A stretch of 64,000 nt of DNA from Malacoraja senta (Eukaryota). Position numbers: made by a program. The stretch is from the NCBI GenBank assembly GCA_038087875.1, contig CM075993.1, forward strand, positions 1,116,001-1,180,000, in the 5' to 3' direction. Position 1 is the stretch's first letter, and the number at the start of each line of letters is the position of its first letter. Positions 31,001 through 37,000 of this stretch are shown piece by piece.

Positions 31001-34000
31001 CGTTCGCACTGCGGCCTAACGGAGTTGGCGGCCTTTCCTGGAGACCGACCTGTTGGAGCTCCAAGCTGCGGGAGTCTGCGGGACTTTAACATCGCGGAGC
31101 TTGCGATCCCTTTGCCGGGGATCGAAGCTCCAACCGCGGGGCCTGTGGACTTTAACATCGTGAAGTCCGCGGTCTCTGGTAAGAAGAGGCCGACTCGGGA
31201 GCTCCACGCCGCGGAGAGAGTTTCAACCGCCCTGACGCGGGAGTTTCGATCACCCCGACGGGTGTTTCGATTGTCGGCTGCGTGGGGCTTTGATCGCCCC
31301 GACTGTGGATGGTTTGACTGCCCCGACCACGAGAGAACAAAGAGGAAGAAGATTAAACTTTATTGCCTGTAGATGAGATATGCATGTGCCTTTAACATAG
31401 TGACCTCACACCCACTAACCACTCCCCATATCACAAGTATAACTACCACCTCCACACCCACAGATCGCTCTCTAGTTCCTGTGACAGACCACGTACAGCT
31501 AGTGCAATGTATAATGTCCAGTATGAATAAAGATAGTAAAGTAACGATGCCTCGTTATCAAACCTTTACATGGTGTCAAATAACTTACCTTGCGCCTCCC
31601 GTTTATCGGTTTATCATTTAATTTTGACCCAGTTTTTTGTTTCCCCCCTAACTGTTTTTGTTATGGCCTCTTCTGCCCGTAAGCCCGATGCGCTCGTTTT
31701 CGATTTCGACATCACCCTTCGATGGGACATATTCAAACGCGACTTTGAACACTATTTCACGATTGCCCATCCTGGCGCCACCGACGCTCTCAAAGCCTCG
31801 CTGCTTCTCAACTTGGCTGGTCCCAACGCCTTGACTCGCTCGGACTTCTTCGTCTACGCTCCTGGAGAATCAGCTCGGGACCCGGCATGTCTGTTGGCTA
31901 AGTTTGACGCTATTTGTGACATTCCTACTAATTGTATTTTAGAACGTTTTAAACTGTTCGCGTGGCGTCAGCTCCCTGGGGAATCTGCTGAGAACTATGT
32001 CATTGCGCTGCGGGACCTGGGCAGGCGCTGCCGCCTCGAGACGTGGACCCCCGATAATGTCATCAGGGACCTACTGGTTTACGGTCTCCGTGATGAGAAG
32101 CTCAGGTCCGAACTACTTCGCAAGCCGGATCTGACCTTGGCCGATGCAATGCACGCGACTCGCTTAGCCGACGCTGTTTCCGCGGCGGCGCCGCCGGCTG
32201 AACAGGCGATCAACTTTGCCAGCACTCCTAGCTATCTCATGAACGCACCCCAGTCGCGACCCCCGGTGTCGCTCGCTGCTCGAGGGGGACGCGCCCCGGG
32301 GTTCGGTGGTGCCACAAGGGGAGACACCCAGCAAAGGTGCCCTAATTGCAACTTCACAACTCATCAGTTCAATGTGTGCCCTGCGCTGGGAAAGAACTGC
32401 AACTCCTGTAATAAGTTGAACCATTTTGCTGCAGCTTGTCGTTCCCGTGGGAAGCCTGTCGCTGCTCGAAGGCAAAATTTAAACAACCTTCTACAGTCGG
32501 ATAATGATCTCAGCTCCCAGCACTATTCCGATGAACATTCTGTTCCTACATCTAACTCCTCTCAGGGGGAAACCAGCTTGTTTACCGTGGTGAACGCACC
32601 TGCTATGATAACGGATCCTTCTGTGCAAGTCACTGTGAACAACTCGACCTTCACGGCCAAAATCGACACTGGGGCGGTTACCAATGTTATGTCAATATCT
32701 CTTTTCAACCAGATAAGGACTAATGAGAAGATATTTTCTCAGAGCTCAAACCTGCATGCCTACGGTGGGGAGATCCTTACTCCTGTGGGCAAGGCCACAC
32801 TACACTGTAAGATACTGAAGGCCACTCGGCCCCTCACCTTCTTTCTCCTCAATCGAAGTTGCGTTCCCCTGCTGGGGATCCAGGCATGCCAGGAAATGGG
32901 ACTGGTGTCCTTCCACCGGGACATCCACCACGTGCAGGCTCTTATGGACCCGCTGGCCGAGTATCCTGACCGCTTTGATGATAACCTAGGCAAACTACCC
33001 TGCAGCTACAAGATTGAAGTGGACCATAAGATCGTTCCTGTGGTCCATGCTCCTCACCGTATTTCCTTCGCCATGAGGGACAAAGTGGAGGCGACCCTAC
33101 ACAGTATGGTACAAATGGGCGTCCTAAAGGCGGTCGTCGAGCCCACCAGCTGGGTCTCTTCCATGGTTGTTGCTGCTAAAAAGGACATGAGTAAGATACG
33201 CATCTGCATCAACCCCAGAGACCTCAACCTGGCCATTCGGCGCCCTCACTACCCTATGAGAACGGTGGAAGACGTCGCTGCACGGGTTGGTCCAGCAACG
33301 GTCTTTTCGGTCCTCGATGCCAAGAGTTCATTCTGGCAGATACCACTGGACGAGCGGTCGTCCATTTTGACAACCTTCGCCACCCCCTATGGAAGGTTTC
33401 GGTTCCTCCGAATGCCCTTCGGAATCAACTCTGCCAGCGAGGTATTCCAGCGAACCATGGAACAGTTGTTTTCAGATCTGCCTTGCGCCATAATTGTTGA
33501 CGACATCCTCGTTTACGGTAAGGATGTTGCCGAACACGATGTCAACCTCCGCCTGATCCTGGACCGGGCCAGGCAAATCAACTTGAAACTGAACCCCAAG
33601 AAGTGCCGATTCCGCATCTCGGAGGTCACCTATGTTGGACACGTATTCACCGCTGAGGGGCTGAAGCCAGACCCGCAGAAAACGACTGCCATCTCAGGGA
33701 TGCCTCCTCCTACTAACGTGGCAGGCCTGCAACGCTTTCTCGGCTTGGTAAACTACCTGGGGAAGTTCATCCCCGACCTAAGCGAGCTCAGCGCTCCCCT
33801 GAGGGATCTGATCAAAAAGGACACTTCCTGGCTTTGGTTACCCAATCATCAGAAGGCATTTGACATTCTTAAGTCTAAACTGATCAGCACACCCACGCTC
33901 AAGTTCTTTGACCTGCGGCATCCCATTGTCCTCACCTGCGACGCCTCTCAATTCGGACTCGGTGCCGCCTGCCTCCAGGTCCATGACGGCCTGCAGATGC

Positions 34001-37000
34001 CTGTCTCATTCGCGTCCCGCACCATGACCGCCACCGAACAGCACTACGCGCAGATTGAGAAGGAGCTACTGGCCGTGCTGTTTGCCTGCTCCAAATTCCG
34101 GGACTACATCGTGGGCAACACTTTCACCGTTGAAACTGACCATCAACCACTTGTTACCATCCTCAACAAACCGATCCATGTGGCCTCATCACGTCTGCAG
34201 CGCATGCTGCTGCAGCTCCAGCGTTTCACGTTCACGGTGGTGTATCGTAAGGGGAAGGACATGTTCGTAGCCGACACGTTGTCTCGCGCCCCGCTGACGT
34301 CCACTGCTCGCCACCAATACAAAACGTCCGAGTTACTAGTACTACGATTGAACTTCGTCCCCTCGCCACAGATGAAGTCCCTGGTTGAACACACTACCAA
34401 CGACCCTGCCCTGCAACAGCTGTCTGCCGTCATCCGGCAGGGCTGGCCTGACCGTCGCTCGGCACTGCCGGCTGGAGCCGTGCCCTACTTCCTGATTCGG
34501 GACGAGCTCGTATTGCACGACGGCGTGGTGGTGAAGGGTCACAAAGTAGTCGTGCCCGCGGCGCTGCACGACCACTATTTTCAGGTCGCACACCGCGGTC
34601 ACACTGGGGCCGAAGCCACTTTGTCTCTCGCCAAGGCACAGTTCTATTGGCCGGATATGGCAAAGTACATCCGGGAGAGGGTCTCATCGTGTTCCACCTG
34701 CAACAGCCGCGCCCCCCATCAGCAGCGTCAGCCGCTTCTACAGCAGCCCGCGCCCGGACTGCCCTGGATGGCGCTCGCCACAGACATTTTCGAGTGGCGG
34801 GGCAAACATTTCCTGGTACTCGTTGACTTCTACTCCAGCTGGTTTGCGGTTGACCGGCTGCCTTCCATGACCTCTTCGGCCGTCATCGACAGGTTGGACC
34901 CTCACTTTAGCACTTTTGGCCCCCCGGCAAGCCTGCAGTCGGACAATGGCAGCCAGTTCACGAGCTCCGAGTTTAAAGCGTTCGCTTCCAGATGGAACTT
35001 TCGCCATTTCACAAGCAGCCCGGAGTACCCGCAAAGCAACGGTTTGGCCGAGCGCGCGGTCCGCAGTGCTAAGCACCTGTTGGAACAGTGTGGTGGCATT
35101 AACTCCGACTTCCACCTGGCCCTCCTCAGCCTTCGGAACATCTCTCGCGACCCTGCCATGGGCTCACCTGCTCAGCGGCTCCTGTCTCGCGCTACCAGGC
35201 TCCCACTCCCGGTGGCCCAGCGATCCCTCATACCCTCGGTCCTTCCACCTGCGGCGGTTCAGAAACGAATTGCCTTCAGGCAAGACGTCCAAAAGCGGTC
35301 CCATGACAGGTCCTGCCACCCGCTGCCGCCCCTCTTCCCCGGTCAAGTAGTCCGTATGCAGACCACTCCCGGTCACTCCAAGCTCGCTACTGTCGTCAGC
35401 TCTGCGGGGTCGCCCAGGTCCTATTTCGTCGACTACGCTGGGACCATTTACCGACGGTCTCGCCAGCACCTTCGGCTCGTCCACGAGCCGCGTCCTCCTG
35501 CCGCCGATCCCTTTGCTCCCCCGCTGCCTGTTTCCCGTCCGGCCGTTGCCCTGCCCGTGATTCCCTGCATGCCTCGCTCTGCTCCTCCTTCGCCCCCTCC
35601 GCTCCAACACACTCCGACTAGTCCTCGCACGCCCCCCCGCGCTCTTCCCGGACCCGCATCCCCTCCGGTTTCGGTGCCGCGATCTCTTCCGTTTCCTCCC
35701 GTTTCTCCCTTTCAGGTTCGTCTGTCCCCGCTGGTGCCTCTTCCTCCTCCAGGAAGGGTGGATGGCGAGACGCGAACCCGGGCGGGACGTCTGGTCAAAC
35801 CGCCTGACCGCTATGGCGATGTTGCCTAGCTATCCTAGCGCATGAGCCGTGGTCGCCATGTCACCTTTGTATTTGCCTGTCGTTTCGGGGAGGAAGGATG
35901 TAGATGAGATATGCATGTGCCTTTAACATAGTGACCTCACACCCACTAACCACTCCCCATATCACAAGTATAACTACCACCTCCACACCCACAGATCGCT
36001 CTCTAGTTCCTGTGACAGACCACGTACAGCTAGTGCAATGTATAATGTCCAGTATGAATAAAGATAGTAAAGTAACGATGCCTCGTTATCAAACCTTTAC
36101 ATTGCCTTCCATCACAGTGAGGAATGTGGGGAATCCACTGTGGTGGATGTTTATGTTAACTTTTATGTGGGTGTGTGTCTTGTTGCTTTTCACTTAGTAC
36201 GGCAGTATGGTAACTCCAATTTCACTGTACCTTAATTGGCACATGTGCCACTTGTTAAAACAGTAAGGATGTAGTCTTGGTCTTGCAGCATGGGTGTTTC
36301 ATTGCTCGAGGAGCTGTGAATGGGACTAAGTTTATACACCCACATCGCCAACTATGACCTCAGTGTAGAGAGAAGTGTCAGATCCTCACATCGATCCGAA
36401 TATAATAAACACACTCCAGGGACACTCAATGCAAGGATCTGACAGGAATGTCAAGGATAAAGCATCCCATCAAACACTGTCGCCCTCATCTTGCTGCTGT
36501 AATTCAGCTCTTCTGCCCATGTTTGGCACATGGCTGCAATGAGGGTTTTGATGAAAGCGAAACTAAGCATTGAGTAAATATCATGTAATGTCTCTCTCAA
36601 CATCCGCCAACTGTTTGCTGATGAATGATAGCTGACCAATAGAGCAATAATTAGCTGAAATGAAATTATCTTACGTTTTGTAGATCTGAAATATCTAAGC
36701 AATTTTTCATTTCTAGTTATATGGCAGTGGTGTAAATGTAAATAGCTAGGCTAGATGGCAGAGAGGTGAACTAGTCTTCACATGACTGCCAGATACTGCG
36801 TGGTCAGGAAGACTTTGCTACATAGTGCTTACTGCCATTTCTTGATAACCTTTGTTTAGTTTAGATACAGCGCGGAAACAGGCCCTGCGGAAACAGGCCC
36901 TTCATCCCACCGAATCCTCACCGACCAGCGATCCCCGCACATCAACACAATCTTCTAAACACTAGAGACAATTTACATTTATTCCAAGCCAATTAACTTA

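What the first reader, a model, noticed from the sequence alone, without database searches (positions are those of the whole stretch)
31368..36101. Intact, very recent and compact Mag-like Gypsy element in a MYO9A intron
Seen: no differences between the 203-bp LTRs, a perfect TSD, an uninterrupted 1388-aa ORF with catalytic residues present, total length only 4734 bp, and a body visibly richer in GC and CpG than the host DNA. It is antisense to MYO9A. Established: short LTRs, a single ORF, two CCHC knuckles, a tRNA-Leu-type PBS and a 5-bp TSD fit the Mag lineage, which is common in aquatic invertebrates and fish. Inference: probably transposition-competent and polymorphic; the lack of CpG decay fits a recent arrival, possibly by horizontal transfer.
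Basis: partly seen in the sequence, partly recalled or inferred. Interest (0 to 1): 0.65.

Follow-up and report, generated by a model that had tools for sequence, protein, structure and literature searches.

The report
Intact Mag-type Gypsy retrotransposon in MYO9A intron
This is a structurally complete, evolutionarily young copy of a common kind of virus-like jumping gene, sitting backwards inside an intron of the MYO9A gene of what is probably a cartilaginous fish; it is a well-made but ordinary annotation.

Summary
Window 31368-36101 (+) is a 4734-bp LTR retrotransposon with two 203-bp LTRs identical at 203 of 203 positions, TG..CA ends, a 5-bp duplication (TTGCC), a TGG-starting primer site, a purine tract and one open 1388-codon gag-pol frame. 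Domains run capsid, two CCHC knuckles, protease, RT, RNase H, integrase; the nearest solved structure is yeast Ty3. It lies antisense in a ~17.9-kb intron between the third-last and second-last mapped coding exons of MYO9A. Size, short LTRs, single frame and two knuckles match published Mag-lineage/Steamer-like elements, so 'compact' is normal for the lineage. A tree with reference Mag, SURL or Jule could not be made. 'Very recent' is only bounded: zero LTR differences allow up to about 3-15 My, or 1.3-6.4 My adding the open frame. Horizontal transfer gets no support: the nearest named relative is a skate protein (74% in RT-RNase H), sister to the element in 100 of 100 bootstraps, with teleosts next. 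The tRNA-Leu primer claim, copy number and polymorphism stayed untested. Verdict: new member of a known kind, low to moderate interest.

The parts
31363..31367 (+). left copy of the 5-bp target site duplication (TTGCC)
31368..31570 (+). 5' LTR, 203 bp, TG..CA; TATAA at 31438 and 31510, AATAAA at 31526
   Evidence: (D7)
31571..31588 (+). putative primer binding site, starts TGG right after the LTR; its length and its tRNA were not determined
   Evidence: tRNA identity not testable here (one search found no tRNA gene in the window)
31663..35829 (+). single gag-pol open reading frame, 1388 codons plus stop, no interruption
   Evidence: relatives align from residue 1 of this start
31711..32220 (+). 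Gag capsid-like all-helical domain (aa 17-186)
   Evidence: model of mean pLDDT 78.4; all PDB fold matches shown are retroviral or Gag-derived capsids, best PNMA2 E 3.1e-3, dArc1 TM 0.65, none at E <= 0.001
32338..32439 (+). nucleocapsid with two CCHC zinc knuckles (aa 226-259)
   Evidence: each Cys/His column is kept in 101-103 of 120 relatives and the rest are almost all gaps
32614..32901 (+). aspartic protease (aa 318-413), D-T-G at aa 335
   Evidence: Pfam RVP, E 0.0039, below the curated cut-off; D in 110 of 120 relatives, 10 gaps
32998..34290 (+). reverse transcriptase and RNase H (aa 446-876); motif C is I-V-D-D
   Evidence: Pfam RVT_1 4.3e-22, RT_RNaseH 1.1e-28, RT_RNaseH_2 9.6e-30; Ty3 RT/RNase H 4ol8 3.4e-66; columns
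34552..35052 (+). integrase HHCC zinc domain and D,D(35)E catalytic core (aa 964-1130)
   Evidence: Pfam Integrase_H2C2 3.5e-12, rve 1.2e-12; motifs; D in 115 and E in 114 of 120 relatives
35053..35826 (+). integrase C-terminal part: conserved to about aa 1280, then a Pro/Arg-rich stretch (aa 1281-1360) held by only about a third of relatives; no chromodomain, no GPY/F motif found
35887..35898 (+). polypurine tract abutting the 3' LTR
35899..36101 (+). 3' LTR, identical to the 5' LTR; AATAAA at 36057
36102..36106 (+). right copy of the target site duplication (TTGCC)
41564..41695 (-). MYO9A coding exon just upstream (in gene sense) of the intron that holds the element; AG acceptor and GT donor seen
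   Evidence: tblastn match bounds with 6 named non-human MYO9A proteins
23503..23706 (-). next MYO9A coding exon, downstream of that intron; two more exons follow (20706-20572, 19237-18767) and reach the C-terminus of three of the six proteins compared

Best explanation
An autonomous LTR retrotransposon of the Ty3/Gypsy group (Metaviridae) with Mag-lineage, Steamer/SURL/Jule-like architecture. It is structurally complete and inserted antisense into a ~17.9-kb intron near the 3' end of MYO9A, in a genome that is probably that of a cartilaginous fish. Shown: two identical LTRs, a target duplication, a primer-site start, a purine tract, one open gag-pol frame, all catalytic motifs, and a capsid-like Gag fold. 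Inferred from established knowledge of LTR elements: the 5' LTR drives a full-length RNA that ends in the 3' LTR. That RNA is translated into one Gag-Pol polyprotein, which the protease cuts. Capsid and nucleocapsid package the RNA. A tRNA primes reverse transcription at the primer site and the purine tract primes the plus strand. The integrase inserts the DNA copy and makes the 5-bp duplication. The copy is young (at most a few million years). It belongs to a lineage long resident in jawed fishes and is not a fresh arrival from another phylum. It is most likely silent baggage for MYO9A, since antisense intronic insertions are the tolerated orientation.
For: Structure. Domains in the order PR-RT-RH-IN. 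Best solved relative is the Ty3 Gag-Pol polyprotein 7q5b at 4.5e-82 and Ty3 RT 4ol8 at 9e-66, with residue-level agreement at the RT and RNase H motifs. Catalytic columns agree with 110-120 of 120 relatives. Gag: capsid fold and two knuckles. Relatives: 702 proteins at E <= 0.001 among 8000 scored. The full-length ones have 1300-1376 aa and many come from contigs of 4.3-5.1 kb, so the same compact plan is common. Lineage: element plus the Leucoraja erinacea protein are sisters in 100 of 100 bootstraps; the next group is 10 teleosts plus one sea star in 82 of 100, or the 10 teleosts alone in 13. Identity to the skate protein is 74% in RT-RNase H and 50% in Gag, against 62-67% and about 34% for teleosts. 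Host gene: four colinear RhoGAP pieces on the minus strand, one exon matching proteins named Myosin IXA, 16 colinear tblastn exon matches and canonical splice borders. Literature as named in the full report.
Against: No tree with reference Mag, SURL or Jule could be made, so the lineage name rests on architecture and on an annotation label. The LTR end motifs published for small Mag A and Mag C training sets (PMC3601003, Table 3) are not matched beyond TGT...ACA. Activity is wholly inferred: no other copy, solo LTR or fragment exists in the 59 kb of flank, and copy number in the genome is unknown. No protein closer than 76-81% (partial, unnamed sources) was found, so a multi-copy young family is not shown. 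Pfam recognises neither Gag nor, above its cut-off, the protease. The host taxon is inferred only from the closest matches.
Confidence: 0.85

Rival explanations
1. Recent horizontal arrival: the element entered this genome lately from another aquatic animal, which would explain its GC/CpG richness and lack of decay.
For: Element GC is 0.556 and CpG o/e 0.885 against 0.407 and 0.381 in the host DNA. No other copy in the window. The lineage has a reputation for transfer: PMC9025612 (passage) says SURL elements moved between echinoid species, and reference lists cite a 2018 PNAS paper on transfer of Steamer-like elements between phyla (title only seen; not held). A sea-star protein groups with the teleost clade (82 of 100), so the lineage's distribution is patchy.
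Against: The nearest named relative is from a skate, in 100 of 100 bootstraps. No candidate donor was found: nothing above 81% identity over short stretches, or above 76% over 45% of the protein, and the best Gag-protease match is 62%. High CpG is what any young or unmethylated copy shows. GC3 of 0.65 may simply be the family's own composition.
Confidence: 0.08
2. Old, fixed insertion that merely looks young: mutation in cartilaginous fishes is slow and 203-bp LTRs carry little clock information, so the copy may be millions of years old, fixed and no longer mobile.
For: Zero differences in 203 bp allow up to 3.0, 7.4 or 14.8 My (P = 0.05) at 2.5, 1 or 0.5 x 10^-9 per site per year (the rates are assumed, not measured). 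No second copy is in view.
Against: A 4164-nt frame without one stop or frameshift, together with the LTRs, tightens the bound to 1.3-6.4 My under neutrality. CpG o/e of 0.885, with TG and CA less inflated than in the flanks (1.19 and 1.09 against 1.27-1.32), argues against long exposure to methylation-driven decay.
Confidence: 0.3
3. A Ty3/Gypsy element of another lineage (not Mag), or a new lineage next to it.
For: No reference-based tree was made. Published Mag A/C LTR end motifs are not matched (PMC3601003, Table 3). RT motif C is aliphatic-V-D-D.
Against: The tested features of other lineages fail: no chromodomain, integrase not upstream of RT as in Gmr1, not CG..CG with a 3-bp duplication as in Troyka (PMC12440569 abstract), and no room for env (69 nt from the stop codon to the 3' LTR). 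Two CCHC arrays, short LTRs, a single frame and a 4.7-kb length fit the Mag/Steamer-like descriptions. Relatives carry the K02A2.6-like label tied to the C-clade (PMC8905726 passages).
Confidence: 0.12
4. Assembly artefact or contaminant wrongly joined into the MYO9A intron.
For: Composition differs sharply from the flanks, and identical LTRs can arise from assembly collapse.
Against: A perfect 5-bp duplication of host sequence flanks exact TG..CA ends, which a misjoin would not create. The intron continues on both sides with the host's own repeat families.
Confidence: 0.02

Closest known systems
Steamer-like elements of bivalves, e.g. MchSLE1 of Mytilus chilensis (PMC11046912, passages read)
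   Same: Nearly the same plan: 4758 bp against 4734 bp; one gag-pol frame of 4134 nt (1376 aa) against 4164 nt (1388 aa); LTRs of 185 against 203 bp; two zinc fingers in the nucleocapsid; HHCC and D,D(35)E integrase; a purine tract next to the 3' LTR.
   Different: Host phylum. MchSLE1's first finger is reported as CCCC, here it is CCHC. Its primer site is reported for tRNA-Asn, here the tRNA is undetermined. The paper speaks of a YxDD box, here the motif is I-V-D-D. No sequence comparison with it was possible.
[quoted passage not shown]
   Same: A vertebrate (fish) host and the Mag family. From recall only: about 4.8 kb with LTRs of about 200 bp.
   Different: Bony against probably cartilaginous fish. 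Identity is unknown because its sequence (accession AY298856 as listed in PMC4746887) could not be fetched.
SURL of sea urchins, reference of the Mag C-clade (PMC6238403, PMC3601003 passages)
   Same: No env; short LTRs (the Mag C training set averages 174 bp); aquatic host; lineage wide in metazoans including vertebrates.
   Different: The published Mag C LTR end motifs are not matched beyond TGT..ACA. No direct comparison was made.
Ty3 of yeast (PDB 7q5b, 4ol8)
   Same: Best solved relative (4.5e-82 and 9e-66). Same PR-RT-RH-IN order and same catalytic residues in the aligned RT/RNase H.
   Different: Ty3 motif C is Y-L-D-D against I-V-D-D here. Recalled, not tested: Ty3 makes Gag and Gag-Pol by frameshift, whereas here there is one frame.
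Leucoraja erinacea LOC129707187 protein (P0002) and two further skate proteins (P0246, P0248)
   Same: Nearest named relatives: 74% in RT-RNase H and 50% in Gag; sister in 100 of 100 bootstraps.
   Different: Too distant to be the same family. P0002 has 1036 aa and lacks the integrase domains.

Membership tests
LTR retrotransposon, Ty3/Gypsy group (Metaviridae) | Direct LTRs ending TG..CA with a 4-6 bp target duplication (as stated in PMC8220671 and PMC12440569) | tested here: met
   203 of 203 identical, TG..CA, 5-bp TTGCC
LTR retrotransposon, Ty3/Gypsy group (Metaviridae) | pol domain order protease - RT - RNase H - integrase | tested here: met
   Pfam positions 318-413, 506-661, 725-855, 964-1123; Ty3 is the best PDB match
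LTR retrotransposon, Ty3/Gypsy group (Metaviridae) | Primer binding site after the 5' LTR and polypurine tract before the 3' LTR | tested here: met
   TGG starts at 31571; a 12-nt purine run lies at 35887-35898. Which tRNA primes was not tested
LTR retrotransposon, Ty3/Gypsy group (Metaviridae) | Gag with capsid fold and nucleocapsid | tested here: met
   Model pLDDT 78.4; all fold matches shown are capsids but none reaches E <= 0.001; two CCHC knuckles
Mag lineage (A, B, C clades) | Groups with reference Mag, SURL or Jule in RT/RNase H/integrase trees; the clades are defined by phylogeny (PMC6238403, PMC8220671) | not testable with these tools
   Accessions are listed in PMC4746887 but no tool fetches them. 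Indirect only: relatives are labelled K02A2.6-like, which PMC8905726 ties to the C-clade
Mag lineage (A, B, C clades) | Nucleocapsid usually with two CCHC arrays (PMC2577118) | tested here: met
   aa 226-239 and 246-259; conserved in relatives
Mag lineage (A, B, C clades) | Short LTRs and a compact body (training LTRs 174 and 213 bp, PMC3601003; mean element about 4000 bp in a frog, PMC4131045; MchSLE1 4758 bp, PMC11046912). A descriptor, not a definition | tested here: met
   203-bp LTRs, 4734 bp overall
Mag lineage (A, B, C clades) | LTR end motifs of the Mag C and Mag A training sets (PMC3601003, Table 3). A descriptor from 16 and 20 LTRs, not a definition; the Mag C model had 0% sensitivity in that paper | tested here: not met
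   Only TGT at the start and ACA at the end agree
   No eukaryotic tRNA sequences on hand; no tRNA gene in the window. MchSLE1 is reported with tRNA-Asn (PMC11046912), so the primer type varies within the lineage
Chromoviruses | Chromodomain at the integrase C-terminus | tested here: not met
   No Pfam match in aa 1143-1388 even at E <= 5
Gmr1-like elements | Integrase upstream of RT (PMC8220671 passage) | tested here: not met
   Integrase lies after RNase H
Troyka | CG..CG termini and 3-bp duplication (PMC12440569 abstract) | tested here: not met
   TG..CA and 5 bp
Retroviruses / env-bearing errantiviruses | A third, envelope reading frame | tested here: not met
   69 nt between the stop codon (35829) and the 3' LTR; no other plus-strand ORF of 100 aa or more outside gag-pol
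MYO9A (host gene) | C-terminal RhoGAP domain plus colinear matches to proteins named myosin IXA | tested here: met
   RhoGAP profile 1-42, 47-84, 86-120, 115-148 on four successive minus-strand frames; names; 16 colinear exon matches.

The most novel reading that the evidence does not exclude
The copy belongs to a family that is still moving in a living cartilaginous fish. In that case the MYO9A insertion is polymorphic. The family may also be one more node in the network of Steamer-like/Mag C-clade elements that papers report as crossing between aquatic phyla. Because the element lies antisense in a transcribed intron, MYO9A pre-mRNA would supply antisense RNA to it, a ready substrate for small-RNA silencing.
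Probability: 0.2. Interest if true: 0.5.

Novelty: new member of a known kind. Interest (0 to 1): 0.25.

Why it matters
Intact Ty3/Gypsy copies are lost from mammals but persist in fishes. A complete copy in a probable cartilaginous fish marks a family worth counting when asking whether LTR elements are still active in these slowly evolving genomes. It also gives a clean marker (presence or absence in a MYO9A intron) for population or species comparisons. Beyond that it is a routine repeat annotation. Nothing in it departs from the known plan of the lineage. The one mildly notable trait, an aliphatic residue in place of the tyrosine of the RT Y-x-D-D box, is shared by 112 of 120 relatives.

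Tried and rejected
1. A defective RT, because no Y-x-D-D was found. Rejected: both aspartates are present and I/V/L at that place is the rule in relatives (112 of 120).
2. Other copies, solo LTRs or older fragments in the window. tblastn and blastn of the element against the rest of the window gave no hits.
3. An 'empty-site' paralogue of the flanks in the window. There is none: only one 29-nt match for the left flank and none for the right.
4. tRNA genes or Rfam families in the window, to test the primer site. 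None were found.
5. Tandem repeats in the LTRs or at the insertion site. None were found.
6. Pfam on Gag and on the integrase tail at a lax threshold. Nothing useful came back, so Gag was settled by fold instead.
7. Whether this exact protein is already in the protein collection.
8. The Jule, Steamer and 2018 transfer papers are not held.
9. A literature search for the I-V-D-D motif returned only papers that use the same letters for a disc disease.
10. The ESM Atlas on the open frame in the CpG-rich left flank gave no lead (best score 0.75).
11. Pfam on 300 of the 369 minus-strand open frames of 40 aa or more outside the element. Apart from RhoGAP it gave only weak stray matches. The other 69 minus-strand frames (above 52.5 kb) and all 366 plus-strand frames were not scanned.

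Full report
OBSERVATION.
- The 5' LTR is 31368-31570 and the 3' LTR is 35899-36101. They are identical at 203 of 203 positions. In one search, 208 of 223 aligned columns are invariant: 203 LTR columns plus 5 chance matches in the 20 flanking columns. In one search, family D7 is the only 100% direct repeat of 60 nt or more in the window.
- The LTRs start TG and end CA. TTGCC is found at 31363-31367 and again at 36102-36106. At fixed borders a 5-nt match has a chance of 1 in 1024.
- TGG follows the 5' LTR directly, and a 12-nt purine run (35887-35898) abuts the 3' LTR.
- The frame from the ATG at 31663 to the stop at 35827-35829 has 1388 codons and no stop. An in-frame ATG at 31570, across the LTR border, would add 31 codons. 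Relatives align from residue 1 of the shorter form.
- The window has no N.

ANATOMY.
- Pfam finds RVT_1 (aa 506-661, 4.3e-22), two RNase H models (aa 725-855, about 1e-29), Integrase_H2C2 (aa 964-1018, 3.5e-12) and rve (aa 1041-1123, 1.2e-12). It finds the protease only weakly (aa 318-413, E 0.0039, below the curated cut-off).
- Motifs present: CCHC at aa 226 and 246, D-T-G-A at aa 335, HHCC from aa 969, and D,D(35)E over aa 1041-1130. No GPY/F motif was found.
- The best solved relatives are yeast Ty3 Gag-Pol (7q5b, 4.5e-82) and Ty3 RT/RNase H (4ol8, 9e-66), followed by a chain deposited as 'Enzymatic polyprotein' (8r0s) and retroviral enzymes.
- In the residue-level alignment to Ty3 the RT motif A aspartate and the RNase H D-A-S and D-H motifs line up. 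Motif C reads I-V-D-D where Ty3 has Y-L-D-D.
- Among 120 relatives that first position is I in 91, V in 13, L in 8, D in 5, F in 1 and A in 1. The two aspartates are kept in 120 and 119. It is therefore a lineage trait, not damage.
- Pfam does not see Gag. A model built on an alignment of 41 sequences (mean pLDDT 78.4, pTM 0.52) shows ten helices between aa 17 and 186, and disorder at 187-220 and 272-313.
- In the PDB fold search no match reaches E <= 0.001. Every row shown is nevertheless a capsid of a retrovirus or of a Gag-derived gene: PNMA2 8rb3 (E 3.1e-3, TM 0.58 on the target), dArc1 6tap (TM 0.65), MLV, HIV-1, Arc and PEG10.
- The integrase tail is conserved to about aa 1280. A Pro/Arg-rich stretch at aa 1281-1360 is occupied in only about 0.35-0.38 of relatives.
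- There is no room for env: 69 nt separate the stop codon from the 3' LTR.

COMPOSITION AND AGE.
- Element GC is 0.556, with 316 CpG and o/e 0.885. The flanks (59,267 nt) have GC 0.407, 933 CpG and o/e 0.381. The LTR has GC 0.424, 4 CpG and o/e 0.48.
- TG and CA are less inflated in the element (1.19, 1.09) than in the flanks (1.27-1.32). GC at third codon positions is 0.65 and rises toward the 3' end.
- These figures fit a copy that has seen little methylation-driven decay. They also reflect the family's own coding composition, for which I have no baseline.
- The clock is weak. With no difference in 203 bp, the P = 0.05 upper bound is 3.0, 7.4 or 14.8 My at assumed rates of 2.5, 1 or 0.5 x 10^-9 per site per year.
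- Adding the open frame (120 site-equivalents for nonsense changes, indels at a tenth of the substitution rate) gives 1.3, 3.2 or 6.4 My. 'Young' is fair; 'very recent' is not shown.

HOST GENE.
- I examined the gene exon by exon and made no joined model; that step was left out.
- Pfam was run on 300 of the 369 minus-strand open frames of 40 aa or more outside the element. RhoGAP was found on four successive frames, with profile positions 1-42, 47-84, 86-120 and 115-148, at 46146-46454, 45639-45800, 44804-44932 and 42805-42990.
- The first of these frames, searched alone, hit 320 proteins at E <= 0.001 among 412 candidates. The listed ones are overwhelmingly named myosin IXA or unconventional myosin-IXa, at up to 97-100% identity over 58-68% of the frame.
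- tblastn of six named non-human MYO9A proteins gave colinear minus-strand matches at 63311-63096, 57054-56944, 55771-55640, 52487-52185, 51758-51627, 51312-51115, 48190-48080, 47519-47457, 46355-46155, 45863-45651, 44911-44786, 42945-42805 and 41695-41564. After a gap the matches resume at 23706-23503, 20706-20572 and 19237-18767, the last reaching the C-terminus of three of the proteins.
- AG and GT borders are visible at the two exons that bound the gap.
- The element therefore lies in a roughly 17.9-kb intron, on the opposite strand.
- Among the six proteins the Callorhinchus one is the closest in three of the exon matches it shares with the others: 96.9, 97.9 and 78.8%. Together with the skate relatives of the element, this makes a cartilaginous fish the likely host (inference). 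I do not take the window for human.

RELATIVES AND THE TRANSFER QUESTION.
- The whole-protein search gave 702 proteins at E <= 0.001 among 8000 scored. The best named one is Leucoraja erinacea LOC129707187 (60% over 70% of the query). Full-length relatives are 39-48% identical over 91-100%. They come from teleosts, amphioxus, a sea star, corals and molluscs, many labelled 'K02A2.6-like'.
- The search among shorter proteins gave 189 hits among 8000 scored. The best are partial, unnamed-source proteins at 76% (45% of the query), 79% (20%) and 81% (11%), plus two more skate proteins at 65% and 63%.
- The Gag-protease part, scored against 1.84 billion representatives, found 9674, 2605 and 90 proteins at 1e-3, 1e-10 and 1e-30. 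The best is 62% identical.
- No source therefore holds a near-identical element.
- Region by region, the skate protein is 74% identical in RT-RNase H (319 of 431) and 50% in Gag (133 of 266). Teleost proteins are 62-67% and about 34%. The sea-star protein is 63% in RT-RNase H.
- A neighbour-joining tree of RT-RNase H was built from the element plus 21 of the 26 organism-named hits. I left out P0027, P0075, P0088, P0079, P0093 and all 94 hits without an organism name. It puts the element with the skate protein in 100 of 100 bootstraps. The next group is ten teleosts plus the sea star in 82, or the ten teleosts alone in 13.
- For the element this is what vertical descent in jawed fishes predicts. 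The sea star is the odd one out.
- The tree is a simple distance tree and has no curated references.

COMPARISON WITH WHAT IS KNOWN.
- Passages I read say the following:
  - The Mag lineage comprises the A, B and C clades, defined by phylogeny and widespread in metazoans including vertebrates (PMC6238403, PMC8220671, PMC3601003).
  - Mag nucleocapsids usually have two CCHC arrays (PMC2577118).
  - Training LTRs average 174 bp (Mag C) and 213 bp (Mag A) (PMC3601003).
  - Mag elements average about 4000 bp in a frog genome (PMC4131045).
  - The C-clade holds SURL and Steamer, and 'K02A2.6-like' annotations appear to belong with it (PMC8905726).
  - The Steamer-like MchSLE1 has 4758 bp, one frame of 4134 nt, 185-bp LTRs, two zinc fingers and a primer site for tRNA-Asn (PMC11046912), and it makes sense and antisense RNAs (PMC10974842).
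- The element here fits that plan almost number for number, so its compactness is normal.
- The LTR end motifs tabulated for Mag A and Mag C (PMC3601003) are not matched beyond TGT..ACA. They come from 16 and 20 LTRs and do not define the lineage.
- Chromovirus, Gmr1, Troyka and env-bearing types are excluded by tested features.
- The Jule paper (pmid 11158369), the Steamer paper and the 2018 paper on cross-phylum transfer are not held. I saw only their titles in reference lists.
- One search for the I-V-D-D motif in print found nothing relevant.

WHAT STAYED OPEN.
- Membership by a reference tree.
- The priming tRNA.
- Copy number, polymorphism, expression and methylation in the host.
- Repbase and Dfam are not on hand.
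The genome collection holds only bacteria and archaea, so it was not used.

VERDICT. A correct and careful observation of an ordinary thing: a complete, young, Mag-type Ty3/Gypsy retrotransposon, antisense in a MYO9A intron. It is a new member of a known kind. There is no evidence for horizontal transfer, and only an upper bound on its age.

Noticed in passing
window 30960-31367: A 408-nt block with GC 0.576, 39 CpG and CpG o/e 1.16 (CA o/e only 0.52) abuts the element's left target duplication but is not part of it. It has degenerate internal repeats. TRF, Pfam on its minus-strand frames and the ESM Atlas gave nothing, and it shares one 29-nt match with 29791-29819. It may be a piece of another young repeat or a small unmethylated island. 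Unexplained.
   Followed up: partly
window, e.g. 424-494, 4326-4396, 10544-10614, 14792-14929, 28015-28152, 58828-58965: SINE-like repeat families (D1-D5) with 5-13 copies each at 60-97% identity, in both orientations, fill the MYO9A introns. Not identified.
   Followed up: no
window 38032-38118 (-): A short stretch in the same intron matches residues 1343-1371 of one Callorhinchus MYO9A isoform only (72%, E 4e-6). AG- and GT-like borders are nearby. It may be an alternative exon; if it is used, the element lies between it and the exon at 23706.
   Followed up: partly
window 27141-27509 (-): An open frame with a Pfam ALKBH8_N match (6.2e-5). From recall this model often hits retroelement-derived fragments, so it is probably an old repeat.
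   Followed up: no
window 58503-58598 and 58600-58695: A near-perfect palindrome: 96-nt arms, 99% complementary, 1 nt apart (I12).
   Followed up: no
window 33493-33504 (aa 611-614 of the element): RT motif C is I-V-D-D. An aliphatic residue replaces the usual tyrosine in 112 of 120 relatives. One literature search found no mention of it.
   Followed up: partly
relatives P0031 (Patiria miniata) against the teleost proteins: A sea-star protein groups with ten teleost proteins (82 of 100 bootstraps) and is as close to the element as teleosts are (63% in RT-RNase H). This is a patchy distribution of the kind papers ascribe to transfer among aquatic animals.
   Followed up: no
window 32164-32475, 34738-35115, 35164-35610 (-): Antisense open frames of 103, 125 and 148 aa lie inside the element, on the strand that MYO9A transcribes. 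In GC-rich coding DNA these can arise by chance. A mussel Steamer-like element is reported to express an antisense frame (PMC10974842).
   Followed up: no
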